From Sulfurimonas sp. (lineage in GTDB: Bacteria; Campylobacterota; Campylobacteria; Campylobacterales; Sulfurimonadaceae): 64,000 nucleotides of DNA. Each line of letters begins with the position of its first letter. Positions within the stretch are counted from its first letter, which is position 1. A model generated the notes under the pieces. The model worked only from the letters and a program-made list of their open reading frames with translations, was not told the origin of the DNA and made no database searches. Position numbers and translations under genes: made by a program. This document shows, in pieces, positions 34,276-63,864 of this stretch. The stretch covers positions 53,957 to 117,956 of the forward strand of contig NZ_JAQTLH010000005.1 in NCBI RefSeq assembly GCF_028714975.1, written 5' to 3'.

Positions 34276-35819
34276 TATTTATCCTCTGCTTTGGAGATTA
34301 GATTTAGTTTTAAAGTTATATTTTTAACAAAACTCTCAGCACTAGCTGCATCCGTAGAGTTAATAATAGCTTCTAGAGCATTATCAAAATCATGAATTCT
34401 CATATTTTCACTCATTCCTTTTAGTTTTATGGCAATATCTTTGCACTCTTTTAAATCATTTTTTTCAACAGCGATACTCATTGATTTAGAGAGATCTTTT
34501 GCCTCAATTAAGTAGTCTTCAAAGAGTTCATTGAAGCTATCTATATCCAACCCTATATCATGGGCTATCTGTTTTTTATTGTAATTCATAACAAGATCAG
34601 GAATTTTTTCTTGAACAATCTCTTGGGCGCTTTCTTCAATATCGTCAGCCGAATTATCCAACACTGATAAATCTTCATCGTTAACATCAATTTCATTTAT
34701 AGTGATTTTAGGTTTTAAAAATTCATCATCTGCGAGTTCAGGAATCTCTATGGAATCAGGAACCTCTGAATCGTCAATTTTCATAATTGGTACATCTTGA
34801 GCTAGTTTGTCATTTTTAAAAGATAAAACAAACTCGTCTTCACTCTTTTGTGTCTCTTTTTTAGCAATAATGGGTTCTGCCGCTACAACATCTTTTCTGG
34901 ACAGCTTATCGATTATTCTATATAGCCTATCTAGGTTTGTTTTGATTTCGTTGTTATCGTTTGATGTGTTTATTATTGTTAGCGCATCCAAAGCATCTTC
35001 TACCCTTAAGTTTGCGGCAACTCCTTTTAATTTATGTGACTGTGATTTTAAACTACTTAAATTTCCGTTTATAGCATATTCGTACAGCTTCTCTTTGAAA
35101 CTATTTGCTTGAGCAATAAAATCTTGAATAAACTCCTCAACCAAATCAATCGGTAAGCCGAGATCATGCGATGCTACCCGCGGATCATATATATAGCTTG
35201 AAAAAGGAGCTTCTTCCGTCTTCTCTTTCTCTTTGCTTATCTTTTCTATTTCGACGATAGGCGCCGCTTTTGGTTCTTCAACTTTTTCAATTACGGGTTT
35301 AGCTATCGGTGCTTGTGGGATACTCTTTTTTTCTATATCAAAAGTCGTATCCTCATAAACATCTTTTATTATATTCGGACTTAACCTGTCATAAGCAGGA
35401 GCAGACTCTGCTAGTTTAGTTGACGGCGATACGGTTTTTGGCACAGGTTTGTTTAGGATGTCTGCAGAAATTTTTTCACTCTGTTCGTTTGATAGAAGTT
35501 TAATACCTAAGAGGTTGACGATATATGCTTTTTGCGACGGGTTGTCAACTAGATAAATTGTTTTGATCTCTATGCCGCTACTATAATTTTTTCCTTTAAC
35601 GCGAATTATAGCTTTTGCTTCCGCGGCATTATCGCTGCATGTAATGTAATCAATCCAATGTACATGTTTAAAATTATGGATAAAGCCGGGTGTTTTTACA
35701 AATAAGTCTGCAAACTCTGCCGCTTCCGTGTAGAGATCCACAAGGTTTGAGAGACCGAGAGTTTTTAAATCTTCTTCGTCAATTCCTAAAAACTCTTTTT
35801 TGTGATTATAGATTAACAT
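34275..35819 (-). CDS. Hpt-domain phosphotransfer protein with two Hpt-like modules, the second lacking His
   Basis: 'SQSHKLKGVAANLRVEDA' is a canonical H.LKG. The C-terminal 'AIKLKGMSENMRIHDF' has Ile in place of the His. An acidic/Pro-rich linker sits between the modules. Confidence 0.7.
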   Translation of the reverse strand: MLIYNHKKEFLGIDEEDLKTLGLSNLVDLYTEAAEFADLFVKTPGFIHNFKHVHWIDYITCSDNAAEAKAIIRVKGKNYSSGIEIKTIYLVDNPSQKAYIVNLLGIKLLSNEQSEKISADILNKPVPKTVSPSTKLAESAPAYDRLSPNIIKDVYEDTTFDIEKKSIPQAPIAKPVIEKVEEPKAAPIVEIEKISKEKEKTEEAPFSSYIYDPRVASHDLGLPIDLVEEFIQDFIAQANSFKEKLYEYAINGNLSSLKSQSHKLKGVAANLRVEDALDALTIINTSNDNNEIKTNLDRLYRIIDKLSRKDVVAAEPIIAKKETQKSEDEFVLSFKNDKLAQDVPIMKIDDSEVPDSIEIPELADDEFLKPKITINEIDVNDEDLSVLDNSADDIEESAQEIVQEKIPDLVMNYNKKQIAHDIGLDIDSFNELFEDYLIEAKDLSKSMSIAVEKNDLKECKDIAIKLKGMSENMRIHDFDNALEAIINSTDAASAESFVKNITLKLNLISKAEDK

Positions 35820-51105: not shown

Positions 51106-51146
51106 GCGACCGTGGTGGAACGGTAGACACACTACCTTGAGGTAGT
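51106..51146 (+). pseudogene. tRNA-Leu 5'-half fragment (acceptor 5' strand, D arm, anticodon stem 5' side); no T arm or 3' acceptor
   Basis: GCGACCGTGGTGGAACGGTAGACACACTACCTTGAGGT matches the first ~38 nt of the intact tRNA at 51187 with 3 mismatches, then diverges. No CGGTCGC 3' strand occurs downstream. Confidence 0.7.
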
Positions 51147-51186
51147 GCTCCAAAGCATTGTGAAAGTAGAAGAAAAAGTAAAAAAA

Positions 51187-51271
51187 GCGGACGTGGTGGA
51201 ATGGTAGACACACTACCTTGAGGTGGTAGCGCATTACGTGTGTGGGGGTTCAAATCCCCCCGTCCGCACCA
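51187..51271 (+). tRNA. tRNA-Leu (anticodon GAG), class II with long variable arm, CCA encoded
   Basis: Hand-folded. Acceptor GCGGACG/CGTCCGC. D arm GTG-GAATGGTAGA-CAC. Anticodon stem CTACC/GGTAG with loop TTGAGGT. Variable arm CGCATTACGTGTGT. T arm GGGGG-TTCAAAT-CCCCC. Ends in ACCA. Confidence 0.9.
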
Positions 51272-51530: not shown

Positions 51531-51944
51531 TTAGTTTAAAGAAGTATGAATATCAATAATACTATTTGTATGAGATTCATATTTTGCCAATTCTCCGAGT
51601 ATAAATTCTTCAAATCTATCTTTTGTAGAGTTCTCCACTAAATTATCTTGATAAAAAGAACAGTCTTCAATCCTCTCATTCATTTCACCTATTAGATATG
51701 AATAATCACGACTATTATTTTTACCTATAACAATGCATTCGTCTCCTTCTTCAGAGCGATTATTGAACTCTAAAAAATTAACTATTTCTTTATAACTATT
51801 TTTCATTCTTTCGAATAGTAAAAATAAATTGGTTTCTTCCCATTTTTTAAGTATTAAAGAATTTTTATTATCATCAAAGTAGAGAGTAGTTATTTCTATT
51901 CCTCTCCCAGTTTCAATATCTATGTTGTAAGTGTTAATTCCCAT
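51531..51944 (-). CDS. Small acidic hypothetical protein (137 aa), last gene of the RES cassette
   Basis: ORF lying 29 nt downstream of the previous gene on the same strand. D/E-rich. No recognisable motif. Confidence 0.55.
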   Translation of the reverse strand: MGINTYNIDIETGRGIEITTLYFDDNKNSLILKKWEETNLFLLFERMKNSYKEIVNFLEFNNRSEEGDECIVIGKNNSRDYSYLIGEMNERIEDCSFYQDNLVENSTKDRFEEFILGELAKYESHTNSIIDIHTSLN

Positions 51945-51973
51945 TTATTATTCCTTATAATATTTTTATAGCT

Positions 51974-52303
51974 CTAAACATATTCTTTAAATATGTTTTT
52001 AATGCCGTTATGTATGATATATTCTTCTTCATAAAAGAATTCAAGTAAATTATTATGAACGTGATTAACAAACAACATATATTTTTCATTCATATTTTCT
52101 TTAAGATACTCAAGTTGTTCTTCATCTTCATCCACAAAATAATGAGCTATATTTTCAAATTCTATGATATTACTATCAACTTCATCATTAATTATTTTTG
52201 AGTGAATTTCAATATCAATATTTTCACCATTGTGCTCAAATTGAAAATTTGTTTTTACATAAGGAGTTTCTTCATCTCCTACAAATACATTGAACGATAG
52301 CAT
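51974..52303 (-). CDS. Small highly acidic hypothetical protein (109 aa)
   Basis: Starts 20 nt after the RES gene stop. About a quarter of residues are D/E by eye ('VDEDEEQLEYLKENMNE', 'FFYEEEY'). No TM helix or signal peptide. Confidence 0.55.
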   Translation of the reverse strand: MLSFNVFVGDEETPYVKTNFQFEHNGENIDIEIHSKIINDEVDSNIIEFENIAHYFVDEDEEQLEYLKENMNEKYMLFVNHVHNNLLEFFYEEEYIIHNGIKNIFKEYV

Positions 52304-52323
52304 ATAATTCCTTTTAGTTAATT

Positions 52324-53325
52324 TTACAATTCTATTCTGCTTGAGGTAATTTGAATATTTTCTACAATATAAACTTCTGTTTCAATAGCATTTAATTTGT
52401 CATCAAAAAATATGGCATAGTTATCACCATCACCAACAGAACTTTTATAGATAACTCCATCAAAGCCACAATGTTTAATAAGTTCGCAAAGGTATTGACT
52501 TGATAAATATTTTAAATGTGCTTCTCTTGGTAAAATTGGCTTTGAAAGTTCGTCACCTAAATGCGTTAAAAATTCCAAATCTGCTATTCCACCTTCGGGA
52601 AGTTTGAACGGGGAGATAATCTTTCTCGGATTCCTTAAATCAGCAAAAATAAGTTTTTCAGATGATTGAAAGCTTGCGACTGTAATTGAATCTTTTTTAT
52701 GAGGTCTTATTTCTGCAATGGCAGTTTCTTTATTTGAAGCTGTATATAAATAAGAAATTCCTAAAGGGTTTGCACGTCCCGCACTTGCAATTTTAACAGG
52801 AGGCTTGCCCATATCTTTTTTATTAATACTATCAATATCAATATTGATTCTTGCACGATAAAAAAGTTCTGGAACTTCGTTTTGCGGTAAAATTATATAG
52901 TTTAGAAGTGTTTGTAAATGCTCATAATCTGGTGATTTTTGTGGAAAAAAACGATTCACATGTTTAAGCTCTTCCTTAAATTCTTTCCAATTCAGTATTT
53001 TAGTTTCATTTTCTTGTTTAGTTGGAATATATAATCCACTCATATTTTCTTGAAGGATGTCTTCTAATAATTTTAAAGTTGTTTCATCATTTAACTGTTG
53101 AAATAAGTTCCAATCATTTTTTAATAATGATGAAATTAATGAACCTTCTTCGTTTGATAGTTCATATCTTTCCAATAGTGGTTCAATATAGGCACTTAAT
53201 ATTTCTGTATTTATTAAAGAAGTATCTGATGTATGACAAAAATCACATTCACCTTTAGAATGTGATTTTCCCTCAATAATAGCACTAAGAAAATTATCAT
53301 TAAAACAATTTGAACAACAAAGCAT
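52324..53325 (-). CDS. Zn-ribbon N-terminal domain (HEPN/RES-NTD1-like) fused to a RES-domain NAD+-targeting toxin
   Basis: N-terminus 'MLCCSNCFNDNFL...SKGECDFCH' (CxxC...CxxC). RES triad context: 'SAGRANPLGISYLYTASNKETAIAEIRP' supplies R and E, and 'DGVIYKSSVGDGDNYAIF' supplies S. Confidence 0.75.
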   Translation of the reverse strand: MLCCSNCFNDNFLSAIIEGKSHSKGECDFCHTSDTSLINTEILSAYIEPLLERYELSNEEGSLISSLLKNDWNLFQQLNDETTLKLLEDILQENMSGLYIPTKQENETKILNWKEFKEELKHVNRFFPQKSPDYEHLQTLLNYIILPQNEVPELFYRARINIDIDSINKKDMGKPPVKIASAGRANPLGISYLYTASNKETAIAEIRPHKKDSITVASFQSSEKLIFADLRNPRKIISPFKLPEGGIADLEFLTHLGDELSKPILPREAHLKYLSSQYLCELIKHCGFDGVIYKSSVGDGDNYAIFFDDKLNAIETEVYIVENIQITSSRIEL

Positions 53326-54270
53326 TTATTGCTCTAGTAAGTATTTTGATATTAACTCTAAGTGATGTTGCATAGATAGTTTTTTTGCATAACCAAGACC
53401 TGGAAAATGGGCTTCTTCAAAAAAGTTTTTAAATTGTTGATAAGCTTCTGTTTTTAATATCAATGAATTCTCTTCTTCGACAGCTTTAACTAACTTTTCT
53501 AAAGCTTCTAGAAATTTTCCTGCTGGGTCTGTTGGTGTATCCACTCTATCTGAAACAAAATGACGAATATACATATCTTCATCTTCTTCTAAATATGTTA
53601 AATGAAGTGCAATAGCATATGCAGGACCGCCACTTTCTGAATAATCATCTCCTACTATTAGAAAATCTCCAAAGCCCTCCATCCCTTCATCATCATATGT
53701 AATATGCAAATCTGAAAAATGTTCTTTATGAGGGTAGTCTCTATTTTTATTCTTTTTGAATCCATCACGTATTAAAATTCTCGGGATACCATTTTTTTTA
53801 AATTGCTTTTGATACAGCTTCCCTGATTGAGCATCCATAAAAATATGTTTATTGATATTCGAAAAACTTTCTGTAAGCTCAGCTAGTTCTTTAGCTTTTG
53901 GATATCCATTATGAATAATCACAATAGATTTATCTAAATTATCATCTATGAAATCTTTAACTTCCAATAAATTACTTTCAGCATCTACAATATATGCAAT
54001 ACTGTATTTATCATATTCACGTAAAATTGTGTTAATCGTATTATCAAATATTGGGAGGGAATTACTTTTAAAGTCACCATACTTAGGGTTAATCACTAAA
54101 ATAAATTCTGTATTTTCTTTTTTTAGGGATTCTATAGCTTTATTTAAAGGTGCAAAGTTTTTTTTAACAGGCTCTATAATAGGTACCATTGCCGATTTAG
54201 TTATAAGTTTGGCATTTTCTCTGAGTAATATTAATTCGTTCTGCTTACCTCTAAGATATGGATGATACAT
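53326..54270 (-). CDS. Beta-protein / sce7725-like family protein
   Basis: The ORF track extends to 54297. The ATG at 54270 gives 'MYHPYLRGKQNELILLRE', the N-terminal hallmark I recall for the phage P4 Beta-protein / sce7725 family. Its stop abuts the RES gene start (53326/53325). Confidence 0.6.
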   Translation of the reverse strand: MYHPYLRGKQNELILLRENAKLITKSAMVPIIEPVKKNFAPLNKAIESLKKENTEFILVINPKYGDFKSNSLPIFDNTINTILREYDKYSIAYIVDAESNLLEVKDFIDDNLDKSIVIIHNGYPKAKELAELTESFSNINKHIFMDAQSGKLYQKQFKKNGIPRILIRDGFKKNKNRDYPHKEHFSDLHITYDDEGMEGFGDFLIVGDDYSESGGPAYAIALHLTYLEEDEDMYIRHFVSDRVDTPTDPAGKFLEALEKLVKAVEEENSLILKTEAYQQFKNFFEEAHFPGLGYAKKLSMQHHLELISKYLLEQ

Positions 54271-55150
54271 TGTAATCCTTTTTGTTAAAAATAACATTCA
54301 TCTTTTGATTTAATAGATATGAAAAATCTTTTTGTTCTTCCATGGATAAGTCTGATTCTAATACTGCGATTTTTAGAGAATTAGGAAATAAGCTTATTGT
54401 GCTAATGAAATTCTTGTGATTTTTACGTTCTTTAAAAGTTCTTAACATTTCTTTATGAATAATTTCAATAGGTAGCTTTATAAATAATTCTTTGCAAGCT
54501 GAATAAATTTTTGTATTTGGTAAGTCAGGAACAGAATTATAGAATTTCTGAATGATTTGTAGATATTCATTTTTACGTAAAAGATTAAACATAGATTCTT
54601 TATTAAGTCTATTCAAACCAGATTTAGCTTTGCGTATTGTCCTTAGCGTGTATTTATCTGTTAATATAATTATCCCTACTGATTCATCAATCAAAGATTT
54701 GATTTCATCTATTTTTGATTCTACAGAAACCACATTCACATATTCAAAAACTTTTTTATAGTTTTCAATTTGGCTTTCAAGTCGCTCAAAATTATCTAGT
54801 TCCGTTTTAATTTCATATACATGTGAAGTTCCATTAAATATGACAACATCAGCTTTAGATGTTTCAACACGCAATTCCGTAAATAAAGAAGAAGAGTTTA
54901 TAGAATGTCGTCCTATTAAGATTTTTTGGGCGATAGCATTCTTGAAAATATATTCATTTCGATATGTTTTTAAAAGTTGTTTATAAGAGCTTTCAAAAAA
55001 ATCTTTTAGTGTAATATTCTGATAAATTTTATCAAGCATATTAAACTCATCAAAAAATTTCACCAATCGCCCAGAATGATGATTGTAAAAAAAATCTCTT
55101 AAAACATTGGATGTAAAAAGGTAAGATAATGCTATATTGTTTTTTTGCAC
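54251..55150 (-). CDS. PD-(D/E)xK nuclease-fold protein, sce7726-like
   Basis: 'YRNEYIFKNAIAQKILIGRHS...FTELRVETSKADVVIFNGTSHVYEIKTELD' carries E...D-x(n)-E-x-K. GTG start with an AAGGGG RBS. A TAAAAT -10-like box lies at 55176-55181 on the minus strand. The 3' end overlaps the next gene by 20 nt. Confidence 0.6.
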   Translation of the reverse strand: MQKNNIALSYLFTSNVLRDFFYNHHSGRLVKFFDEFNMLDKIYQNITLKDFFESSYKQLLKTYRNEYIFKNAIAQKILIGRHSINSSSLFTELRVETSKADVVIFNGTSHVYEIKTELDNFERLESQIENYKKVFEYVNVVSVESKIDEIKSLIDESVGIIILTDKYTLRTIRKAKSGLNRLNKESMFNLLRKNEYLQIIQKFYNSVPDLPNTKIYSACKELFIKLPIEIIHKEMLRTFKERKNHKNFISTISLFPNSLKIAVLESDLSMEEQKDFSYLLNQKMNVIFNKKDYNVSSIS

Positions 55151-55400: not shown

Positions 55401-57068
55401 TCATGGTAATTCCTCTCCATGTATGTCTCTATGTAGTTTTTTAAGAATTTGTATAGTATTAATAAGTTCTTGTTTATATATAGGAACTTTCATAGTATCA
55501 TGAGATAAAGGATTTAGTAATAGCCTTGTGAATTCATCTAATGATTCTAATGTTTGTTTTAAATCTTGAATCTTTTTCTTTTTAAAATTTTGAAATATTT
55601 TTAATTCATTTCTCATAAAAACTAAAATTTCATCTTTTTTAGGGTTGTCGTTTAATTCATCATCAATAAAGTCTTTAAATTCTCTTTTCTCAATTAATAT
55701 TTCTATAGCATCTAGTATCTCTTTATACTTTCCAATATTATTATCAGCTTTAGCTTGAGTAAGCATATCTTTAAACTTAGTAAATTCTTCATCTTGATTA
55801 AATACTATATCTGTTAAGTGATTTTGATTGATATACTTTAATAGTCTTTCAGCTTCTTTTCTTAAATAGTTAGCACATGCTGGATAATCGTGTTTGACTA
55901 AATAATATTCAGCTTTAATAAAATAATCTTCATGAGGGATAATTAATGGCTTTTCAATGCTTGCAGAATCATTAACATACATTTCAAAATACTTCCATTT
56001 ATTTCGTTGAATAGTATCAAATTTATTTTTAGCCATTTGAAAAAAAGCTTTATCATGCGTGAGTATAATGAATTGAAAATTTTTAAAATTATCATCATTT
56101 AGTAAAATATTCAATACTGTATCACGATTGGACATATCAAGCGATACCAGTAAGTCGTCAAGAACCAATATTTTTAACTCACTATCTTTTAGCTTTATTT
56201 GACTAATTGCTAATCTTACTGAAAGTGCAATTGCTGTTAATTTAGCCTCATTAAAATAACTTTGTGGTCTATGAACTGGTAGCATCTCGCCACTACTTTT
56301 CTTGACTGTAATAACTAATTTAATTTTAGGTTTTAACAATACTTGTTTGTCATATTTTCCATTAATAATTTCTACTTTTATCTTGATATCTTTAAAATTA
56401 AATTTTATTAAATAAGTATTTGTAGGTAAATTTATATCTTCTACTTTTGATCTCAGCAAGCTATTAAATTGAGCTAATTTCGATATTAAGTTGATGTAAT
56501 CAGTTTTTTCTACAATCTTTCTAGGTTTATGTTTATTTAGCTCAAGTATTTCATTCCATAAATTTCCAAGATTAACACCATCTTTATCCAATATATGAAA
56601 TATTTCATATTCAAATAAAGAGAATAAATCAATATGTTCTTTATGTAAAAAATTAAAAAATCTAAATAAATATTTATAGTTAATAAAATCACTAGCTAAA
56701 TTGGCATTTGCAATAATTTTATCTTCTTTATTTGTATCTATTGTGTTTTTTGAAATAGTAAAATATTTGTTGTCTGCGTGTGGTTTTTGTAAAGAAATTT
56801 TTACAAATGACTTTTCATCATCATCTTCATGAATATTTACTAGAGATTTTTCATTTTCATTCTCTTGTGTTGATTGAGTAAAGTATTCCTTGATTTTTAT
56901 ATCATTCTTGAAACTACTTTGTAATAATGTGTATAATGACCAATATACTGTGCTTTTACCACTCCCATTCTCACCATAAATTAAAATATTTTTATTTTCA
57001 AATTCTAAGGAGTCTGTGTCTAAAAAAAATTTAAAAAACTTAATATCAAGTGTATTTATTTTATACAT
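55401..57068 (-). CDS. ABC/SMC-type ATPase resembling the PrrC/RloA (AAA_13-like) family, with an uncharacterised helical C-terminal domain
   Basis: Walker A 'IYGENGSGKST'. Signature-like 'YFNEAKLTAIALSVRLAI'. Walker B 'LKILVLDDLLVSLD'. D-loop/H-loop 'IILTHD'. The C-terminal ~190 aa is helical with 'YLRKEAERLL' and 'LLNPLSHD'. The start lies 1 nt after the methyltransferase stop. Confidence 0.65.
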   Translation of the reverse strand: MYKINTLDIKFFKFFLDTDSLEFENKNILIYGENGSGKSTVYWSLYTLLQSSFKNDIKIKEYFTQSTQENENEKSLVNIHEDDDEKSFVKISLQKPHADNKYFTISKNTIDTNKEDKIIANANLASDFINYKYLFRFFNFLHKEHIDLFSLFEYEIFHILDKDGVNLGNLWNEILELNKHKPRKIVEKTDYINLISKLAQFNSLLRSKVEDINLPTNTYLIKFNFKDIKIKVEIINGKYDKQVLLKPKIKLVITVKKSSGEMLPVHRPQSYFNEAKLTAIALSVRLAISQIKLKDSELKILVLDDLLVSLDMSNRDTVLNILLNDDNFKNFQFIILTHDKAFFQMAKNKFDTIQRNKWKYFEMYVNDSASIEKPLIIPHEDYFIKAEYYLVKHDYPACANYLRKEAERLLKYINQNHLTDIVFNQDEEFTKFKDMLTQAKADNNIGKYKEILDAIEILIEKREFKDFIDDELNDNPKKDEILVFMRNELKIFQNFKKKKIQDLKQTLESLDEFTRLLLNPLSHDTMKVPIYKQELINTIQILKKLHRDIHGEELP

Positions 57069-57069
57069 A

Positions 57070-60000
57070 CTAAACCTTCTTGATATAGCTAATTATCTCT
57101 TTTAATTCTGTGTCAATTAGCATTAAGTTATTACGAATTTTATTATAAGGTTCTTTGAGTGTGCTAAATGTTTGATTGATGATCTCTATCTTTTCGGAAA
57201 GCTTTTTATCTTCAATACTTTTATATTCTTTTGATACATAAGAGACAAATTCAAGATTTTTATTTGAAAAATCATTACTAAAATATAGCTCATATACCAT
57301 CGCATCTAATATTTCTTCAAAACTTTCTGTGATATGTTGATTTGACACATATTCATTAATTGGCTCATTCAATGAATTTAAACACACTATATAATCCACT
57401 AATATTTCGAAAGGCTTTGTATTGTCAATTTTTTTTATTGGTATATCTAAGATAGGCTCTTTATCAACTTGATAGTTATCTCCTTGCATTTTACCCTTAT
57501 ATTTGAGCCAAAAGGCTATTAATTTAGAATTTAAAATTGCCGTTAAGTATTTCAAACTAATTCTTTTAGATTTTATTACATAAAATGCTTGATTTACATA
57601 GCTATCAAAATCAACATAGGTAAAAACTGGTCTATTAACACATTTTCTTAGTGATAATATTTTTTCGTCTTTAAAAAAATATTCATTTCTAGCTCTATGA
57701 ATACCATACGGTTTATTGTCTGAAGTTATAATTTTTTTAAATTTATCTAAATGTATTTTTAAATTTGAATATGAGTTCATACTATCTGCTCTTTTAAAAC
57801 TACTATCAGTGTATATTATCCAATATTCATTCTCTATGTTAGATTTATATCGTCCTATTTCTTTTGAAGTATATAGAGGTTTAATTAAAGATAATTCCTT
57901 AGCAGAGAGGTTTAAATTATTTTTCTCTTCTGTCGTTAGGTTAAATATACCTTGATTGAGTTCAAAAGTATTTCCTAAAGTTTCAAGAGATTGTTTTGTT
58001 ACATTGTCATTTGGTGTTACTATTCCTTGCGCCACCTCTTCTTTTTTATCTAAAATAAAATTTCTATTACTTTCAATTTTGTCTAAAATAGAAGATATGT
58101 CTGATTCTAGAAATGTGATATTTTTATCAATTAAATCTTTTTTAATAATGACAGAATTATATATGGAGAATTTAAGATTATATTTTTTTCTTAAAAACTT
58201 TGATAATTCATTTTTTGACAAATTTTTGTTTATGACTTTAGAATAATTACAGGTATATTTTTCATTACTAATGTTTTTTTGTAAAAACATTATCATTGTT
58301 TGTATTCCAGCAGTATCAAAAACTTTATAATCCCCAAAATCGATAAACTCTTTAATGACAGATGAATTTAAAAGTTTATTCCGAAATTTTGAGGCTCCAA
58401 AATTACTAATCCAGTTATTTGTTGCTATGAAAGACAAAATACCATTTGGTTTTAATAAGTCAATTCCTTTACAAGCGAATAGATACCAAAGATCCATTTT
58501 TCCTTGATAGCATTCTAAAACCTTAGTTCTATTAAAAGCTGACTTATTAGTATATTCCTTAATATATGGTGGATTGCCAATTATTACATCAAAACCTTTA
58601 TTATTTAATACTTCAGCAAAGTACAGTTTATAAAAAAATAGTTCTGTTGTTGGTCGTTTTTTTACTAATTCCGTTAAAGATATATCTTCATTTAATTTTT
58701 GAATTATGTCCGTTTGTTTTTTGTCAAAACCGAATAAATTTATATTATTTAACTGACTTTTTAATTCTTCATTGTGTTTATCAAGTTTTTTATTTAGTAT
58801 ATCATCGATTTTATGCTCTATACTTTCTTGTATTTTTGTTTTTTCTGAGTTAGTATGAGCATTATAAAATTTGTGTAATAGTATTTGAATTTCATCAATT
58901 ATAGTCTCATCGGTAGAAAATAATGAGTTTGAATCTTTTTCCAGTGGGTCAAATCCATGAATTGTTTCTAGCAAGCTATTTCCAACCATTATTTTATAAA
59001 ATAAATTTGGTAAAGGTGTTGGTTCCTCTTCATCAACTACGATACTTAACCAAAATCTTAATTTCGCGATTTCTACCGCACTTTGTTCTATATCTATTCC
59101 ATAAATACTATTTTCAATCACTTTTCTTTTTAGTTGTCCAATATTAGCTGTTTTATCAATATTTGAAAGAACAGAAACTATTTCATGTAACATACCCATA
59201 GGAAAAGCACCTGAACCAATAGCTGGGTCTAAAACCTTTATATTGAATAATTGGTTTTCTATTGCTTTTGCATTTTTTCTAATAAAAGTATTATCTGTAC
59301 TTTGATTAAAGACCAACTCTTCAATAGCTGTTATATCGTCAAAATAATTTAATAGATAGTTTATAATTGACTTTTGACACATATAATGAACTATTTCTCT
59401 AGGAGTATAATAAGCACCCTTATCTTTTCTATCTTCAAGTAAATCTTCAAATACACGACCAAGCATTTCAGGGTCAATTGCTATTTCACTATCGTCAGGA
59501 GAATCCTCTATAATTGTAAAATTATAACTATCAAAAATTTCAAATATATCTCTAAAAAGAGAGTTGTCTAATATGATATTTAAAGTATCAAATTCATCTT
59601 TACTAAATAATCCACCATTTAAAAATGGCATTTTACATTTTAATTTTTCAAAGTAATCGTTTTCTCTTTTTTCATTCAGTGCTTCAAAAAATATAGGTTG
59701 TAAAATATCCATATAATAGTTATCGTATTGTATGTATTTATCATATTCATTGTTAAAACATTTTGTTAAGAACTTTTTATCTCCATTTTTCCAGTTGTCA
59801 TCACTTCCTAACCAACCTTTTTTTTCTAAAAAGTATAAAAATACAATTCTCCCCAAAAGTTTTTTCGTAAATAATTTTAATTTAATTTCACTCCCAAAAT
59901 AAGCCATTTGAGGATTTAGATAATCAGATATTTCAAAGTATAATTCTTTATATTGTTTGAAAAATTCTTTTGATACTTTTTCAACCCCAAAAGCATCTTG

Positions 60001-60489
60001 CAAGACTTCTATACTTGGATGTTTTAAATCATTTAATTGAGAATATGCTGTTTTTGTAGCAATATCTTTCCCAAGCACATAGGTATATCGCTTTAGATTT
60101 GACACTTGTTGCTTATTATCTTCATCATAGCTAAATCGTATAAAAGAAAGTCTAAATATTTCATTTTTTAAAGGATTATAAAAGATTGCTATTGCACCAT
60201 CAAGAAGTTCGTCTTCAACTCTTTTTTTTAGTATTGTATTTAAAGACACCCTATTATTTTCGATATCTACTTTTTCAGTTGATAGGAATTCAAAAAAACC
60301 TATTTCTTTTCCATCATCAAGTGCAACTTGCCCTAAAAATTTATATTTTTGAATATTTTTTTGTTCTACTTCAGTATCTGGAATTTGGTAGTCAATATCA
60401 TTCTCTTCAAATCCGTAAAACTTATCATAGATAAACTCTATAAAATTTTCTTTGCTATAACTTGATTGTAAAAATTTTTTAATATCCAA
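57070..60489 (-). CDS. Large gamma-class N6-adenine DNA methyltransferase (Eco57I/TaqI-like catalytic core plus C-terminal target-recognition region); no nuclease motif seen
   Basis: Motif I 'VLDPAIGSGAFPMG' precedes motif IV 'VIIGNPPYIKEY'. A TaqI_C-like 'YQVDKEPILDIPI' is present. The N-terminal ~350 aa has unknown function, and I could not find a D...ExK motif in it. Confidence 0.8.
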   Translation of the reverse strand: MDIKKFLQSSYSKENFIEFIYDKFYGFEENDIDYQIPDTEVEQKNIQKYKFLGQVALDDGKEIGFFEFLSTEKVDIENNRVSLNTILKKRVEDELLDGAIAIFYNPLKNEIFRLSFIRFSYDEDNKQQVSNLKRYTYVLGKDIATKTAYSQLNDLKHPSIEVLQDAFGVEKVSKEFFKQYKELYFEISDYLNPQMAYFGSEIKLKLFTKKLLGRIVFLYFLEKKGWLGSDDNWKNGDKKFLTKCFNNEYDKYIQYDNYYMDILQPIFFEALNEKRENDYFEKLKCKMPFLNGGLFSKDEFDTLNIILDNSLFRDIFEIFDSYNFTIIEDSPDDSEIAIDPEMLGRVFEDLLEDRKDKGAYYTPREIVHYMCQKSIINYLLNYFDDITAIEELVFNQSTDNTFIRKNAKAIENQLFNIKVLDPAIGSGAFPMGMLHEIVSVLSNIDKTANIGQLKRKVIENSIYGIDIEQSAVEIAKLRFWLSIVVDEEEPTPLPNLFYKIMVGNSLLETIHGFDPLEKDSNSLFSTDETIIDEIQILLHKFYNAHTNSEKTKIQESIEHKIDDILNKKLDKHNEELKSQLNNINLFGFDKKQTDIIQKLNEDISLTELVKKRPTTELFFYKLYFAEVLNNKGFDVIIGNPPYIKEYTNKSAFNRTKVLECYQGKMDLWYLFACKGIDLLKPNGILSFIATNNWISNFGASKFRNKLLNSSVIKEFIDFGDYKVFDTAGIQTMIMFLQKNISNEKYTCNYSKVINKNLSKNELSKFLRKKYNLKFSIYNSVIIKKDLIDKNITFLESDISSILDKIESNRNFILDKKEEVAQGIVTPNDNVTKQSLETLGNTFELNQGIFNLTTEEKNNLNLSAKELSLIKPLYTSKEIGRYKSNIENEYWIIYTDSSFKRADSMNSYSNLKIHLDKFKKIITSDNKPYGIHRARNEYFFKDEKILSLRKCVNRPVFTYVDFDSYVNQAFYVIKSKRISLKYLTAILNSKLIAFWLKYKGKMQGDNYQVDKEPILDIPIKKIDNTKPFEILVDYIVCLNSLNEPINEYVSNQHITESFEEILDAMVYELYFSNDFSNKNLEFVSYVSKEYKSIEDKKLSEKIEIINQTFSTLKEPYNKIRNNLMLIDTELKEIISYIKKV

Positions 60490-60506
60490 GGCTTGTCCTT
60501 TTAATG

Positions 60507-63500
60507 CTAAACAAATGTTTCACTTAAAATAATATCCATATTAATTTTAAATTTTTGTTGCTCTTTTTTTGTTTCAAATAAACTATATTTGTCTTGTAGT
60601 TTATTGATTTCTTTAGCTATTTCATAATCTTGATATTTTTTAGAAATAGAAATTACTTCCTTACTAAGATTTTGTAATTTACCATCTCTAATTGTTTTTG
60701 TAAAAATATTAAATGTTTCTTTCTCAATAAACTCTTTATCTATCCAAGATTTAAACAACTTAATAGCTTGTTTATCAAACTTGTGTTCAACTCGTATATT
60801 TGTAGTTTGATGGGCGATACCATTTAATTCTTTTTCATAAAATTTCATAGCAGTTTGAACATGCTCATAGTGATAATTTTGTATAGGTAATATAGCCACT
60901 TCTTTTCTATCAGTTTTTAATTCTGTCGCCATTTGAATAAAATTTACTGCTTCACATTTTTCATTATTAACTTTGTAGTAGTTCTTTGATTCATAGTTCT
61001 TTATAAAAACAAATGAAGCCTCTTTTACATTTTCTATGTCTCTTTGAACTCTGACTTTTTTAGGTAATTTATATAGTGCATTGAATTTTTTAGGATTTGC
61101 TTCTTTAAAAGTTCTAATTTCTTCTAAATATTTCAATTCTTCGTCAGGCTTTTCAATATCTGTTTCGTATAGTGCAACAGTTCCAACTTTTTCATCTTTT
61201 GAATAGATTTGACTATCCTCTCCGACTGCATGGTGAAAAGTTTGTAATTTTATAAATGCTTTTTTAGATAGTTCTATTAGGCTTTCACTTTGAGCTGTTG
61301 GCTTAAAGTTATATATGAAGATTTCACTATGCTTCGTTCCAATACGATTTATCCTACCAATTCTTTGCATTAGTCGTGTAGAGTTCCAAGGAATATCATA
61401 GTTATAAACTATATTAGCCCGATGCATATTAACACCCTCACTTAAAGTGTCAGTTGAAATAATTACATTATATTCATCTTTTTGTGTAGAATAATTAGCA
61501 TCAAAATTTTCTCTAATGGTGTCTCTTAATTTATCTCTATTTCCACCATGAACAGTTAAAACTTTATTATAGTCTTGAAGCTCTTGTTCAAGATAAAGAG
61601 CAGTTTGTTTTGATTCTGTAAAAACTACAATTTTACCTTCAGTGTGAGTATCTAAAATAGATTTAAATTTCTCTAACTTAGGGTCATAATCAACTTTATT
61701 CCATAAGTTTATTAAATCTTCTAAAATAAGTAAATCACTTTCTAATTGTTCTAAAAACTCATTTGTAAAATCACTTGAATCAAATGCTTTCATTTTTTCA
61801 TTTTCTAAAAAATAATCAATTCTACTTTCAAAGTCTTCCTCATCCTTGTCAATCATATCGTAAAGATTGAAATGTTTAGAAGGGATATAAACAACACCTG
61901 ATTTGAACATTTGAATTAAATAGTCAAGGTTTTTAGTTTGTTTATTTATTGTAGATTTAAAAGCAGTGAATGAACTTTCAAGTCGTTTGACTAACATCGT
62001 TTTCATAATATCGGCAAGACTTAAGGCACTTTTTTCAAAAAAACCTTCTTGTACTTGTCCATATTTTTTTCTGCCAGATTGATTTAGATTAGCTAGAATC
62101 TGATATCTGTAATACTGTAAATCTTTTGTCAGAATTGTAATCGTTTTATCAAAGATTTCAAGTAGATTATCATCTAGCTTATATTCAAGTTCAATAACAG
62201 GATTAATAATTGGAATATTTAAACCTTGCTCTATTAAATCTTTTTTATAAGTTTCATTTATTTGTATATCAGTTCTTGTTCTCCTAACCATTACTTCTCG
62301 TAAAATATTATCTCTAACTCTTTTTGATAATCTTTCAAGTTCAATCAGCTCACTAGAAGATAATTCAAGAGAGTTTTCTTTTTTACCAATTATCTCTTTG
62401 TATTGTTTGTCAATACTTGCAAAAAAACTTTCTAAATTTGGATGTGAATCAATTGTTGAATTTCTTTTATCTTGAAATAAATATAATTGATTAGCAATAT
62501 CTTGTGGTTTGTTATTTAATGGTGTAGCGGATACAAGAAGTATCTTTTTTTTGTATTTAACTTCTTCTTTACAAATTCTCTCCAACTCTTTATATCGCGA
62601 AGTAGAAAAGTTCTTGAATTTATGAGATTCATCAATTATAATCATTTCATAATCTTCTGTATCTTTTATTTTTTCCAATGCTCCATACGATTTAAATACA
62701 AAGTGTCTAATACTTCCTATCTGAAATCTTTTAAATGTTTCAACCCACTCTTTTTCAATAGACGGAGGGGCGATAATTAGTATTTGACCTTTTGTCTCAA
62801 AACATAATTTTTTAATAATCATTGCACTTGTTATAGTCTTTCCAAGTCCAACAACATCCGATAGAAAAAAGCCATTATGCCTTCTGATTTTAGATAATCC
62901 CTCATTAACTGCATCAATTTGATATGCTAACTTCATATATCCTTTTGGTAAGTCATCTGCAACAGAAGAGTCATAATCAACTCTATCTTCAAAATGTTCT
63001 ATTAAAAATTTCAAATATAGTTCATAAGGAGTTATCTCTTTGAGATAGCTATTCTGCTTAATAGTGTCTATATCAGTTTCAGTAATTTCAATAGATTTAG
63101 CCCATAAGTCTTCAAATTCAGTTAATGCAAACTCTATATCTTCACTATATTTTAGTTCAACATTAAATTCATAATTTTTAGATAAACCATTTTCAGTAAG
63201 ATTTGAGCTACCTGTAATAACTGAACCTCTGTATTCAGTAGTTCCATCATGCCGCTCAATGTTATTTTCTCGTAAAATATATATTTTAGAATGTATGTTT
63301 TTATCTTGTGAAATTTTTATTTCAAGGCGGTTTTCAACAATCATTTTTATAAATAAATTTACACTTTCATCGATCGACTGAGAATACTCTTCTTTTTCTA
63401 AAATATCTTTTTGATTATCAACAAACTCTTGATTAAACTTTTCATAATCTAATAAATTGAATTTTTTACCCCTATTCTTAGCATCAATAGTAAGTTTATC

Positions 63501-63689
63501 AACATTAATACCTACAAGAATTCTAACTTTTTCAATGTTATTAAGTAGTGAGGCTATTTTTTTAAAACCACTAATTCTAAAATAACCTATTAAAAATTCT
63601 AAGTTTTTAATATCATAATGTGTGAGAATATCTTTCAGCCTATTCTCTAATGTATTAGTATCTTGATTTGTGAAAAATTTGGAGTTCAT
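60507..63689 (-). CDS. PLD-family nuclease domain fused to an SNF2-family helicase/translocase
   Basis: N-terminus 'EFLIGYFRISGF' plus 'NIHSKIYILRE...GSSNLTENGL' (single HKD-type motif). Helicase motif I 'VVGLGKTITS', II 'IIIDESHKFKN', III 'VSATPLNN', VI 'LMQRIGRINRIG'. The C-terminal ~250 aa is unassigned. Confidence 0.8.
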   Translation of the reverse strand: MNSKFFTNQDTNTLENRLKDILTHYDIKNLEFLIGYFRISGFKKIASLLNNIEKVRILVGINVDKLTIDAKNRGKKFNLLDYEKFNQEFVDNQKDILEKEEYSQSIDESVNLFIKMIVENRLEIKISQDKNIHSKIYILRENNIERHDGTTEYRGSVITGSSNLTENGLSKNYEFNVELKYSEDIEFALTEFEDLWAKSIEITETDIDTIKQNSYLKEITPYELYLKFLIEHFEDRVDYDSSVADDLPKGYMKLAYQIDAVNEGLSKIRRHNGFFLSDVVGLGKTITSAMIIKKLCFETKGQILIIAPPSIEKEWVETFKRFQIGSIRHFVFKSYGALEKIKDTEDYEMIIIDESHKFKNFSTSRYKELERICKEEVKYKKKILLVSATPLNNKPQDIANQLYLFQDKRNSTIDSHPNLESFFASIDKQYKEIIGKKENSLELSSSELIELERLSKRVRDNILREVMVRRTRTDIQINETYKKDLIEQGLNIPIINPVIELEYKLDDNLLEIFDKTITILTKDLQYYRYQILANLNQSGRKKYGQVQEGFFEKSALSLADIMKTMLVKRLESSFTAFKSTINKQTKNLDYLIQMFKSGVVYIPSKHFNLYDMIDKDEEDFESRIDYFLENEKMKAFDSSDFTNEFLEQLESDLLILEDLINLWNKVDYDPKLEKFKSILDTHTEGKIVVFTESKQTALYLEQELQDYNKVLTVHGGNRDKLRDTIRENFDANYSTQKDEYNVIISTDTLSEGVNMHRANIVYNYDIPWNSTRLMQRIGRINRIGTKHSEIFIYNFKPTAQSESLIELSKKAFIKLQTFHHAVGEDSQIYSKDEKVGTVALYETDIEKPDEELKYLEEIRTFKEANPKKFNALYKLPKKVRVQRDIENVKEASFVFIKNYESKNYYKVNNEKCEAVNFIQMATELKTDRKEVAILPIQNYHYEHVQTAMKFYEKELNGIAHQTTNIRVEHKFDKQAIKLFKSWIDKEFIEKETFNIFTKTIRDGKLQNLSKEVISISKKYQDYEIAKEINKLQDKYSLFETKKEQQKFKINMDIILSETFV

Positions 63690-63764
63690 ATTTTATATTT
63701 CTTATAATTGATTTGCATCTTATTTTATCTAAATAAAACAAACATCCACCTTTTTTAAACTCTT

Positions 63765-63810
63765 CTTAACTTTCTAATTTTTGTTGATTAACAGAAATTA
63801 GAAAGTTAAG
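63765..63810. promoter_or_regulatory. Perfect 16-bp inverted repeat upstream of the PLD-SNF2 gene (operator or terminator of the upstream gene)
   Basis: CTTAACTTTCTAATTT-(14 nt)-AAATTAGAAAGTTAAG. It lies between the stop of the partial minus-strand ORF (63865) and the PLD-SNF2 start (63689). Confidence 0.5.
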
Positions 63811-63864
63811 AAAAGAAAGAATCACCCCTCAAAATCTTCAAATAGATTTTAAAAATTATAATTT

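What the first reader, a model, noticed from the sequence alone, without database searches (positions are those of the whole stretch)
57070..63689. PLD-SNF2 fusion plus large N6A methyltransferase: a reduced DISARM-class-1-like or atypical restriction-modification module
Seen in sequence:
- A 1060-aa protein fuses one HKD-type PLD nuclease motif ('HSKIYIL...GSSNLT') to a complete SNF2 ATPase (GLGKT, DESH, SATPLNN, QRIGRINRIG).
- 17 nt downstream lies an 1139-aa gamma-class adenine methyltransferase (DPAIGSGAF then NPPY).
- I cannot find a PD-ExK nuclease motif in that methyltransferase.

Established knowledge:
- DISARM class 1 combines an SNF2 helicase (DrmD), an adenine methylase (DrmMI) and a PLD protein (DrmC) with DrmA and DrmB.
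- PLD-fold proteins can be restriction nucleases (BfiI, Nuc).

Inference: DrmD-like and DrmC-like functions are fused here, and no DrmA (helicase) or DrmB (DUF1998) gene is present. The pair may be a minimal translocase-nuclease/methylase restriction system rather than canonical DISARM.
Basis: partly seen in the sequence, partly recalled or inferred. Interest (0 to 1): 0.7.

Follow-up and report, generated by a model that had tools for sequence, protein, structure and literature searches.

The report
PLD-SNF2 nuclease plus methylase restriction pair
Two adjacent genes, a DNA-translocating nuclease and a sequence-specific adenine methylase, form a widespread but uncharacterised ATP-dependent restriction-modification module sitting in a mobile defence island of a Sulfurimonas-like bacterium.

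Summary
Gene A (63689..60507, minus strand, 1060 aa) fuses a single-HKD PLD nuclease to an SNF2 ATPase. Gene B (60489..57070, 1139 aa) is an Eco57I/PglX-like N6-adenine methylase with a TaqI_C specificity domain. It starts at a TTG 17 nt after A's stop, behind an AAGGA ribosome-binding site.

The pairing is not chance. In 99 of 101 related loci from many bacterial phyla, archaea and viral contigs, a B homologue lies directly downstream of A. All 6 proteins found through B's N-terminus lie just downstream of an intact A homologue.

B's N-terminal domain folds confidently but matches no solved nuclease and has no conserved catalytic triad. It is the part of B that co-varies most with A (Spearman 0.75). 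The specificity domain does not co-vary (0.03), which points to specificity swapping.

It is not DISARM (no DrmA/DrmB; DrmD score 161 against a cut-off of 610). It is not Hma/BREX-related either (no DUF499 or DUF3780).

Best reading: a Type III-like ATP-dependent restriction-modification system. B marks and reads the sites; A translocates and cuts.

A third, overlapping gene C carries a PrrC/RloC-like R-x3-E...SH motif and may be a guard. The pair has been noticed only in passing in the literature. I score it as a new variant of a known kind, of moderate interest.

The parts
60507..63689 (-). Gene A: 1060-aa PLD(HKD)-SNF2 fusion, the predicted restriction (translocase-nuclease) subunit
   Evidence: ORF. 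Pfam PLDc_2, SNF2-rel_dom, Helicase_C and ResIII. PADLOC 'HKD+Snf2' C3a139 at 3e-40 over residues 26-898. 1205 clusters (50% identity) at E<=1e-30, and the best 150 hits are largely full length.
63060..63614 (-). PLD nuclease domain of A (about residues 26-210). The single HKD motif is H133-x-K135 plus G160-S-S-N-L-T (nt 63195-63293)
   Evidence: PLDc_2 2.7e-10 and RE_NgoFVII PLD 1.1e-5. H133, K135, S161, S162 and N163 are at least 90% conserved in 53 homologues. Only one HxK in the protein, so an active site needs two copies, as in Nuc and BfiI (established knowledge).
61200..62927 (-). SNF2-type ATPase/translocase core of A (about residues 255-830): GLGKT 281, DESH 353, SATPLNN 387, QRIGRINRIG 775
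   Evidence: G281, G283, D353, H356, R776, G778, R779 and R782 are invariant; K284, T285 and E354 are conserved in at least 90%. Best solved relatives are RapA, DDM1 and Chd1.
60510..61199 (-). C-terminal region of A (residues 831-1060), function unknown
   Evidence: No Pfam or PADLOC hit. It is the least conserved part of A (mean pairwise identity 0.27).
60496..60500 (-). AAGGA ribosome-binding site 6 nt before B's TTG start, inside the 17-nt A-B spacer
   Evidence: Sequence read. B homologues align from residue 1.
57070..60489 (-). Gene B: 1139-aa gamma-class N6-adenine DNA methyltransferase with specificity domain, the predicted modification and site-recognition subunit
   Evidence: Pfam Eco57I 4e-36, TaqI_C 5e-11, MmeI_Mtase 3e-10. 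PADLOC REase_MTase_IIG 5.5e-86. PDB sequence relatives are CamA, PglX, BseCI and M.TaqI.
60025..60489 (-). N-terminal alpha/beta domain of B (residues 1-155): predicted adaptor to A, not a demonstrable nuclease
   Evidence: AF2 pLDDT 92. Best Foldseek PDB hits have TM<=0.38 and RMSD about 7.6 A, and none is a restriction nuclease. No PDB sequence hit. Only R113 and T147 are invariant; position 69 is K in 14 of 74 sequences. Highest co-variation with A, Spearman 0.75.
59485..60024 (-). Helical spacer of B (residues 156-335), MmeI_hel/DUF7814-like
   Evidence: MmeI_hel 0.033 here and 2.6e-8 to 7e-5 in homologues; DUF7814 in homologues. Helical in the model.
58210..59484 (-). Methyltransferase catalytic region of B (residues 336-760): motif I DPAIGSGAF (nt 59203-59229) and motif IV NPPY (nt 58564-58575)
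57400..58209 (-). Target-recognition domain of B (residues 761-1030), TaqI_C-like and hypervariable
   Evidence: TaqI_C 8.5e-12. Identity is uncoupled from A identity (Spearman 0.03). Example: L078/L060/L061 have A 90-94% identical and B residues 336-520 93-94% identical, but this domain only about 20% identical.
55401..57068 (-). Gene C: 555-aa ABC/SMC-type ATPase with a C-terminal R403-x3-E407...S-H523 domain. It is an accessory third gene (possible PrrC/RloC-like guard) whose start overlaps B's stop
   Evidence: SMC_N 6e-16 and AAA_23. PADLOC mad3 and AbiLi. A C-like gene follows B in 20 of 99 loci. Motif conserved in 11 of 11 family members. Compare the PrrC/RloC triad in PMC2610378.
63760..63815 (.). 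26-nt inverted repeat (92% complementary, 4-nt loop) in the region upstream of A: candidate terminator or operator
   Evidence: (I6). Function not tested.

Best explanation
A and B form a two-subunit, ATP-dependent restriction-modification system built on the Type III (Mod/Res) plan from different parts.

B is the 'Mod' subunit. Its hypervariable TaqI_C-type domain reads a short, probably asymmetric, DNA site. Its gamma-class catalytic domain (DPAIGSGAF / NPPY) methylates an adenine there, which marks host DNA as self.

A is the 'Res' subunit. It is recruited or licensed by B through B's N-terminal half when a site is unmethylated. Its SNF2 motor translocates on double-stranded DNA using ATP. 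Its single-HKD PLD domains pair up to form one active site and cut the DNA. Pairing may occur within a dimer or when two complexes meet.

If methylation is on one strand only, as in related enzymes, cutting should require two unmethylated sites in head-to-head orientation.

Gene C, present in a subset of loci including this one, is an add-on. It is most likely a PrrC/RloC-type ribonuclease guard that fires if the restriction complex is inhibited.

Shown:
- the domain content and intact catalytic motifs
- near-obligate synteny with tight or overlapping gene junctions across phyla
- co-variation of B's N-terminal half with A
- shuffling of the specificity domain
- location in a mobile, low-GC defence island

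Inferred:
- physical A-B contact
- DNA cleavage by A
- the two-site rule
- the role of C
For: (1) Domains and motifs are intact and conserved.

(2) Synteny. 99 of 101 loci with at least 1.5 kb after A have a B homologue downstream on the same strand. In the ORF tables of the first 82 loci, the A-B gap is typically a few nt or an overlap where no gene is inserted. The loci span Campylobacterota, Bacteroidota, Cyanobacteria, Firmicutes, Acidobacteriota, CPR phyla and archaea, plus IMG/VR viral contigs.

(3) Reciprocal test. 6 of 6 proteins found with B's N-terminal 350 aa lie just downstream of full-length A homologues with intact HxK and GSSNL(T/S).

(4) Over 1035 pairs of loci, identity of A correlates with identity of B's N-domain (0.75), spacer (0.63) and first methylase half (0.53). 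It does not correlate with the second methylase half (0.12) or the specificity domain (0.03). This is the pattern expected if B's N-terminal half contacts A while specificity is swapped by recombination, as in Type I and Type III systems.

(5) B's N-domain shows no nuclease signal, so the only nuclease in the pair is A's PLD.

(6) The module hosts the genes that typically embed in restriction-modification operons: YhcG/DUF1016, SLFN-AlbA_2/HATPase_c_4, an AAA_13 protein (the family I take RloC to belong to) and an OLD-type ATPase. An XRE-HTH gene, of the kind that controls R-M operons, lies just upstream of A in some loci.

(7) Context. The genes sit in a low-GC island next to tRNA-Leu, together with sce7725/7726 and RES-toxin genes. 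The closest relative sits beside ArdA, a relaxase and Rep.

(8) Homologous methylases next to PLD+SNF genes undergo programmed inversions, like other specificity subunits (PMC9881135).
Against: - No experiment exists on any member of this pair that I could find. Restriction, A-B binding and the cleavage chemistry are all inferred.
- B matches a REBASE-derived 'Type IIG' profile along its whole N-terminus. The related stand-alone enzyme Cj0031 restricts phage without a helicase partner (PMC4889913). I could not test whether Cj0031 shares B's N-domain, so an own nuclease in B is not excluded.
- In this B, D59, E67 and R80 are all present, so a divergent active site cannot be ruled out from sequence.
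- PglX-like methylases in BREX act without DNA degradation, so a non-cleaving mechanism is possible.
- Co-variation of adjacent segments can partly reflect a recombination breakpoint in the middle of B, without any physical contact.
- One locus has A without B (L101) and one has the reverse order (L121).
Confidence: 0.62

Rival explanations
1. B is a self-sufficient Type IIG restriction-modification enzyme whose divergent N-terminal domain is its own nuclease. A is an auxiliary or independent helicase-nuclease, for example one that boosts processivity or degrades DNA after the first cut.
For: PADLOC REase_MTase_IIG profile PDLC03596 aligns with B residues 3-349 at 1.5e-41. Acidic D59 (88% acidic in the family), E67 (62%) and basic R80 (99%) are present in this protein. 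Cj0031-type enzymes restrict phage alone. Weak Foldseek hits to Cas4-like PD-ExK proteins (probability 0.3).
Against: There is no conserved D...ExK triad: position 69 is K in only 14 of 74 sequences, and the invariant residues are R113 and T147. No solved nuclease matches at TM>0.4 despite a pLDDT-92 model. No PDB sequence hit. This N-domain was found only next to A (6 of 6) and co-varies with A. The PADLOC label is inherited from REBASE predictions, not from assays.
Confidence: 0.12
2. The pair is a reduced or degenerate DISARM class 1 system (a DrmD-DrmMI remnant with DrmC fused on) that works by the DISARM mechanism.
For: Best NCBIfam hit of A is DISARM_DrmD (3e-47). PADLOC DrmD 1e-42, DrmMI 1e-27 and DrmC 2e-4. 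The SNF2-then-methylase gene order is, from memory, that of class 1 DISARM (not checked here).
Against: A scores 161 bits against an equivalog cut-off of 610, and only residues 458-831 align. DrmA and DrmB (DUF1998) are absent from the island and the window and are not a recurrent neighbour in the first 82 related loci. PADLOC requires all five genes for class 1 (PMC9252829). B is much closer to IIG families (288 bits) than to DrmMI (94 bits).
Confidence: 0.06
3. A BREX-like or Pbe-like non-degradative system. B (PglX-like) marks self. On unmethylated DNA the A-B complex blocks replication or only nicks the DNA, or triggers abortive infection through C, without classical double-strand restriction.
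For: B hits PglX models (1e-23; 9e-25) and the PglX structure 8c45. SNF2 proteins remodel complexes and do not unwind DNA. The related HmaA nuclease acts as a nickase (PMC11232893). C carries a toxin-like motif.
Against: HKD catalytic residues are conserved in at least 90% of the family, which argues for phosphodiester cleavage. No PglZ, BrxC or BrxL is present. C is present in only about 20% of loci, so the core mechanism cannot depend on it.
Confidence: 0.15
4. Member of the Hma / DUF499-centred 'BREX-related Type-2' family, which also uses an HKD-Snf2 helicase plus an N6-methylase.
For: PADLOC C3a139 'HKD+Snf2' 3e-40 and HmaA 2.6e-33. The architecture of A (HKD, Snf2, C-terminal extension) matches the Type-2 BR helicase described in PMC12839542.
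Against: No DUF499 ATPase and no DUF3780 gene is present. C is an ABC/SMC_N ATPase. The methylase is Eco57I/TaqI_C-type, not the DUF1156-type described for BR systems. Neither gene recurs in the related loci.
Confidence: 0.04

Closest known systems
Type III restriction-modification systems (Mod + Res, e.g. EcoP15I)
   Same: Two subunits. The methylase carries the specificity domain and the partner combines an SF2 ATPase with a nuclease. Both are ATP-dependent. Specificity-domain swapping and phase variation are seen in both. A gives a Pfam ResIII hit at 3e-8.
   Different: The nuclease here is an N-terminal PLD/HKD, not a C-terminal PD-ExK. The motor is SNF2-type. The methylase is gamma-class Eco57I/PglX-like with an N-terminal adaptor and helical spacer, not beta-class Mod. 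The gene order is res-then-mod.
Type IIG/IIL enzymes (Eco57I, MmeI, BpuSI, Cj0031)
   Same: B shares the helical spacer, gamma-class methylase and TaqI_C/TRD layout and is called 'REase_MTase_IIG' by PADLOC. Homologues described as Cj0031-like sit next to PLD+SNF genes.
   Different: The position of the IIG nuclease domain is occupied by a domain with no nuclease signature or fold match. A separate translocase-nuclease is almost always encoded upstream.
DISARM class 1 (DrmD + DrmMI + DrmA/B/C), ARMADA II (ArmA + ArmB) and BREX type 3 (BrxHII + PglXI)
   Same: An adjacent SNF2-family helicase and a large N6-adenine methylase. A PLD nuclease is part of DISARM.
   Different: All of these need further core genes (DrmA/DrmB, YprA-type ArmC, PglZ/BrxC) that are absent here. 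Here the PLD is fused to the SNF2 protein. The family models are matched only partially and far below their cut-offs.
Hma / DUF499-centred BREX-related Type-2 systems
   Same: The effector has the same layout of HKD nuclease, Snf2 core and C-terminal extension, and is paired with an N6-methylase. HmaA alone was shown to defend against T4.
   Different: These systems are centred on a DUF499 ATPase and DUF3780, with a DUF1156-type methylase. None of these is present here.
PLD-based ATP-dependent restriction enzymes: SauUSI, CglI/NgoAVII, BfiI
   Same: A single-HKD PLD nuclease that must dimerise, coupled (SauUSI, CglI/NgoAVII) to an SF2 ATPase. A's N-terminus hits RE_NgoFVII PLD at 1e-5.
   Different: From my own knowledge, not tested here: SauUSI is a single-chain, modification-dependent Type IV enzyme; CglI/NgoAVII use separate R and N/H proteins with a C5-methylase and a B3-like reader; BfiI has no motor. 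In the present pair, site reading is delegated to the methylase.
PrrC/RloC anticodon nucleases linked to Type I R-M loci (for gene C)
   Same: An ABC-ATPase N-domain plus a C-terminal R-x3-E...(S)H motif, encoded inside or next to a restriction operon. An AAA_13 (RloC-type) gene occupies the same slot in L072.
   Different: E-to-H spacing is 59-115 residues against 36-52. There is no zinc hook (a single Cys). No significant sequence or profile match was found.

Membership tests
DISARM class 1 | DrmA (YprA-type helicase) and DrmB (DUF1998) core genes in the locus | tested here: not met
   No such domains occur in the island's eight proteins. The only other ORFs above 900 aa in the window are a Calx-beta protein and a histidine kinase. 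Neither gene is a recurrent neighbour in the first 82 related loci.
DISARM class 1 | SNF2 helicase is a DrmD equivalog | tested here: not met
   NCBIfam NF038317 scores 161 bits against a cut-off of 610, covering residues 458-831 only.
DISARM class 1 | Methylase is DrmMI | tested here: not met
   PADLOC DrmMI scores 94 bits over residues 450-723 only, against 288 bits for a IIG family.
Type IIG restriction-modification enzyme | Methyltransferase and specificity domain in one polypeptide | tested here: met
   Eco57I 4e-36, TaqI_C 5e-11, motifs DPAIGSGAF and NPPY.
Type IIG restriction-modification enzyme | Endonuclease domain in the same polypeptide | tested here: inconclusive
   A REBASE-derived IIG profile covers the N-terminus. 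Against that, there is no conserved catalytic triad, no PDB sequence hit and no nuclease fold match for a pLDDT-92 model. Activity can only be settled by assay.
Type III restriction-modification system | Mod methylase carrying the specificity domain plus a Res subunit with SF2 ATPase and nuclease, encoded together | tested here: met
   This holds at the level of functional architecture only.
Type III restriction-modification system | Homology to Res (C-terminal PD-ExK nuclease) and to beta-class Mod | tested here: not met
   The nuclease is an N-terminal PLD, the motor is SNF2-type and the methylase is gamma-class. No Type III model appears among the PADLOC or NCBIfam hits shown.
Hma / DUF499 BREX-related Type 2 | HKD-Snf2 helicase effector | tested here: met
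   PADLOC C3a139 'HKD+Snf2' 3e-40 and HmaA 2.6e-33.
Hma / DUF499 BREX-related Type 2 | DUF499 ATPase, DUF3780 protein and DUF1156-type methylase | tested here: not met
   None of these Pfam families is found in the island. The features are as defined in PMC12839542.
BREX type 1 | PglZ, BrxC, BrxL, BrxA and BrxB alongside PglX | tested here: not met
   Only PglX-like similarity of B was found: NF033452 scores 87 bits against a cut-off of 500. No other BREX gene is present.
PrrC/RloC anticodon nuclease (gene C) | ABC-type NTPase N-domain plus C-terminal R-x3-E-x36-52-(S)H triad, linked to an R-M locus | tested here: inconclusive
   The ABC domain and an R-x3-E...SH motif are conserved in 11 of 11 members, but with spacing 59-115. 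A faint, non-significant HEPN hit (E 0.42) appears in one homologue (L021), and there is no profile link to an AAA_13 protein.

The most novel reading that the evidence does not exclude
The PLD-SNF2 / IIG-like methylase pair is a distinct, very widespread and so far unnamed class of ATP-dependent restriction-modification system. An ancestral Type IIG enzyme exchanged its own nuclease for an adaptor domain that recruits a translocating PLD nuclease. The result is a 'Type III-like' enzyme assembled from unrelated parts. In a subset of loci it is backed by a new PrrC-like ABC-ATPase ribonuclease guard (gene C).
Probability: 0.45. Interest if true: 0.65.

Novelty: new variant of a known kind. Interest (0 to 1): 0.55.

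Why it matters
If confirmed, a large set of genes would be re-read as one two-subunit restriction system with a PLD cutter and an SNF2 motor. These genes are currently annotated as 'helicase-related protein' plus 'Eco57I methylase domain protein', or are auto-called as stand-alone Type IIG enzymes. The helicase family alone has more than 1200 clusters at 50% identity.

This would correct defence-system censuses. It would explain many orphan-looking m6A motifs in methylomes. It would add a natural example of how restriction enzymes swap nuclease and motor modules.

It would also give a simple two-protein model for how SNF2 translocases are coupled to site-specific methylases. That question is shared with DISARM, ARMADA and BREX type 3, whose mechanisms are still unclear.

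The specificity-domain shuffling also offers a source of new m6A specificities.

Tried and rejected
- Sequence search of B's N-terminal 350 aa against all PDB chains: nothing below E=0.1.
- Foldseek of the 350-aa model and of the 160-aa N-domain model against PDB: only DHH phosphoesterases at TM<=0.38 and RMSD about 7.6 A. I judged this not to be a real fold match, and the domain lacks DHH motifs.
- Pfam and PADLOC on A's C-terminal 230 aa: no hit.
- Pfam on C's C-terminal 201 aa: no hit. An HMM of the C family did not reach an AAA_13 (RloC-type) or AAA_15 protein.
- Promoter and terminator scan of the island: counts equal the shuffled expectation, so it is uninformative in this AT-rich DNA.
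- I looked for the XRE-HTH gene upstream of A in the window. It is not present in the 311 nt before the window ends. The closest relative has a divergent ArdA there instead.
- Hma identity was considered because the locus reads 'helicase, methylase, ATPase'. I rejected it because Hma's ATPase is DUF499 and its methylase is of another type.
- The CxC-ABC/Pbe system was considered for C. I rejected it because C has a single cysteine, so no zinc hook.
- Literature searches for a named system with this gene pair found only a passing table entry.
- I could not obtain the Cj0031 sequence to compare N-termini.

Full report
**What is there.** The last 13 kb of the window (about 51.3-64 kb) is a low-GC island. 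GC is 24-29%, against 32-40% elsewhere. All its genes are on the minus strand, and it begins right after a tRNA-Leu(GAG) gene at 51187-51271.

The finding's coordinates match two ORFs exactly:
- A, 63689..60507, 1060 aa.
- B, 60489..57070, 1139 aa, with a TTG start.

The 17-nt spacer contains AAGGA 6 nt before B's TTG.

Pfam gives these hits:
- A: PLDc_2 (2e-9; RE_NgoFVII PLD 1e-5), SNF2-rel_dom (1.5e-13) and Helicase_C (1.4e-22).
- B: Eco57I methylase (4e-36), MmeI_Mtase (3e-10) and TaqI_C (5e-11).

The host is a Sulfurimonas-like member of the Campylobacterota, judged from names in the 90% cluster of the window's PNPase.

**The pair is a unit, not a coincidence.** A's family is very large. 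It has 6718 representatives at E<=1e-10 and 1205 at E<=1e-30 among 50%-identity clusters. The best 150 are largely full length, at about 27-61% identity. In 53 diverse members the HKD residues (H133, K135, S161, S162, N163) are conserved in at least 90%, and the SNF2 motif residues are invariant or conserved in at least 90%.

A scan of one genome per species returned 80 loci. They come from Bacteroidota, Campylobacterota, Cyanobacteria, Firmicutes, Acidobacteriota, Nitrospirota, CPR phyla and archaea. A scan of IMG/VR returned about 30 more with full-length relatives.

Of 101 loci with at least 1.5 kb of sequence after A, 99 have a B homologue downstream on the same strand. In the ORF tables of the first 82 loci, the A-B gap is usually a few nucleotides or an overlap. 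The exceptions are L101 (A alone) and L121 (B-like gene upstream).

Where the two genes are separated, the insert is a gene of the kind known to embed in restriction operons. Examples are SLFN-AlbA_2/HATPase_c_4 and YhcG/DUF1016.

The reverse test also holds. Six proteins retrieved with B's N-terminal 350 aa, at 31-41% identity, all lie just downstream of a full-length A homologue with intact HxK and GSSNL(T/S).

PADLOC's best match for B is a REBASE-derived 'Type IIG' family that aligns along the whole N-terminus. That label comes from prediction, not from assays.

Residues 156-335 are the helical spacer seen in MmeI-type enzymes (MmeI_hel and DUF7814 in homologues). The question therefore concerns residues 1-155.

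- This domain has no PDB sequence relative.
- It folds confidently: pLDDT 87.7 for residues 1-350 and 92.1 for residues 1-160.
- Foldseek finds no restriction nuclease. The best hits are DHH phosphoesterases at TM<=0.38 and RMSD about 7.6 A, which I do not accept as a fold match. Cas4-like proteins appear only at probability 0.3.
- Across 74 homologues the invariant residues are R113 and T147. D59 is acidic in 88% and E67 is conserved in 62%. The position where the lysine of an ExK would fall is K in only 14 of 74, and is L in this protein.

I conclude that a nuclease in B is unsupported but not formally excluded.

**What the N-terminal half of B probably does.** I aligned 45 complete A/B pairs plus the window and compared all 1035 pairs.

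| Region of B | Spearman correlation with identity of A |
|---|---|
| N-domain (1-155) | 0.75 |
| Helical spacer (156-335) | 0.63 |
| First methylase half (336-520) | 0.53 |
| Insert (521-615) | 0.28 |
| Second methylase half (616-760) | 0.12 |
| Specificity domain (761-1030) | 0.03 |

Two concrete cases illustrate this:
- L078, L060 and L061 have A 90-94% identical and B residues 336-520 93-94% identical (N-domain 88-90%, spacer 79-97%). Their specificity domains are only about 20% identical.
- L002 has A 79% identical and B's N-domain 76-77% identical to the window. The rest of its methylase is 10-49% identical.

So B's N-terminal half travels with A while the specificity end is exchanged. 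This is expected if the N-terminal half is the interface to A and the system is under selection to change target sites. Published work found that such methylases next to PLD+SNF genes are targets of programmed inversions (PMC9881135). Several homologous loci show fragmented B genes.

**Mechanism proposed.** The architecture is that of a Type III system built from other parts.

B is the Mod subunit, providing site reading and m6A self-marking. A is the Res subunit, providing an SNF2 double-strand translocase plus a PLD nuclease. Because A has a single HKD motif, two PLD domains must pair to form one active site, as in Nuc and BfiI (established knowledge). Pairing could occur in a standing dimer or when two translocating complexes meet.

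Related methylases modify one strand of an asymmetric site. If B does the same, cleavage should require two unmethylated sites in inverted orientation, so that newly replicated host DNA is not cut. These steps are inferred; none has been assayed.

**The third gene.** C (57068..55401, 555 aa) overlaps B's stop codon. It is an ABC/SMC_N-type ATPase. A C-like gene follows B in 20 of 99 loci. In the first 82 loci, those with a C-like gene usually also have a small XRE-HTH gene directly upstream of A.

All 11 aligned members share the motifs L-R-(K/S)-x2-E and L-(N/H)-P-x-x-H, usually with Ser before the His. The E-to-H spacing is 59-115 residues. PrrC and RloC anticodon nucleases are ABC-ATPases with a C-terminal R-x3-E-x36-52-(S)H triad. 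PrrC is kept silent by its linked restriction enzyme (PMC2610378).

An AAA_13 protein occupies the same slot in L072; that family includes RloC-type proteins as far as I know. I found no significant sequence or profile link between C and these proteins. 'PrrC-like guard' is therefore a hypothesis.

**Comparison with known systems.**

*DISARM class 1.* This is not a match. DrmA and DrmB are absent from the island, from the rest of the window, and from the recurrent neighbours in related loci. A scores 161 bits against the DrmD cut-off of 610. B matches DrmMI only in the catalytic core.

*Hma / DUF499 'BREX-related Type-2'.* These systems use a very similar HKD-Snf2 effector, and A hits PADLOC 'HKD+Snf2' at 3e-40. 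However, they are defined by a DUF499 ATPase, DUF3780 and a DUF1156-type methylase, and none of these is present here.

*BREX.* The system needs PglZ, BrxC and BrxL, which are absent.

SNF2 plus PglX-like methylase pairs also occur in ARMADA II. The pairing is therefore a recurrent building block. The present system is its minimal form with a built-in nuclease.

HKD-SF2 fusions have been described as resembling the restriction subunit of Type I/III-like systems (PMC10853773). This exact gene pair appears once as a table entry. I found no name, no dedicated analysis and no experiment for it.

**Context.** The same island carries further defence-like genes:
- sce7726 and sce7725 family genes; the former hits PADLOC 'cll'.
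- A HEPN_RES_NTD1 + RES protein.
- Two small unknown genes.

The closest relative of A (91% identity) lies next to ArdA, a relaxase, Rep_1 and a C5-methylase. Other relatives sit at unrelated chromosomal sites. This is consistent with a mobile defence island.

**Verdict.** The DISARM-derived label is not supported.

This instance is one member of a very common, conserved but uncharacterised two-gene system. I rate it a new variant of a known kind (ATP-dependent restriction-modification), with interest 0.55.

Noticed in passing
window 55401-57068 (minus strand): Gene C overlaps B's stop codon. It is an ABC/SMC_N ATPase with an invariant C-terminal R403-x3-E407 ... S-H523 motif that resembles the PrrC/RloC anticodon-nuclease triad. 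A C-like gene follows B in 20 of 99 related loci.
   Followed up: partly
window 53326-55150 (minus strand): An overlapping gene pair of the sce7726 (299 aa; PADLOC 'cll' 4e-19) and sce7725 (323 aa) families lies 250 nt downstream of C. It is probably a separate defence module.
   Followed up: no
window 51531-53325 (minus strand): A 333-aa HEPN_RES_NTD1 + RES-domain protein (toxin-like) is followed by two small ORFs of 109 and 137 aa with no family match. These could be a cognate antitoxin or other partners.
   Followed up: no
window 51106-51271: An intact tRNA-Leu(GAG) at 51187-51271 marks the island boundary. A stretch at 51106-51146 is a 90%-identical copy of the 5' part of that tRNA and lies 81 nt upstream. 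Neither ARAGORN nor Rfam calls it a tRNA. A 5' partial copy is not what 3'-end integration would leave.
   Followed up: partly
window 63760-63815: A 26-nt inverted repeat (92% complementary, 4-nt loop) lies in the region upstream of A. In the closest relative (L087) this region separates A from a divergent ArdA anti-restriction gene.
   Followed up: no
L087 1-8167; L088: The 91%-identical relative of A lies beside ArdA, a relaxase, Rep_1 and a C5 DNA methylase, which indicates a mobilisable element. Relative L088 has A-B followed by an unknown 485-aa gene and then a 665-aa C-family ATPase with a long insert.
   Followed up: partly
L009, L011, L037, L041, L053, L069, L072, L084, L086 (between A and B): Genes inserted between A and B are SLFN-AlbA_2/HATPase_c_4 regulators or YhcG/DUF1016 PD-ExK proteins. 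Uma2 genes are inserted in L083. These are the same 'embedded' genes seen in Type I restriction operons.
   Followed up: partly
L083, L084, L085, L024: B homologues are split into several ORFs, with extra partial methylase or TRD copies downstream. This is consistent with phase variation, programmed inversion or decay of the specificity subunit.
   Followed up: no
L125-L134 (IMG/VR contigs): A more distant clade of A-like proteins (23-26% identity over most of the length) is also followed by a B-like methylase. Those methylases align only from about residue 160 onward, so they lack this N-terminal domain.
   Followed up: no
window 31102-35819 (minus strand): A 1057-aa hybrid histidine kinase with a NIT nitrate/nitrite-sensing domain is followed by a 514-aa Hpt-domain protein. 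These are ordinary chromosomal genes that I checked only to exclude a second helicase.
   Followed up: partly
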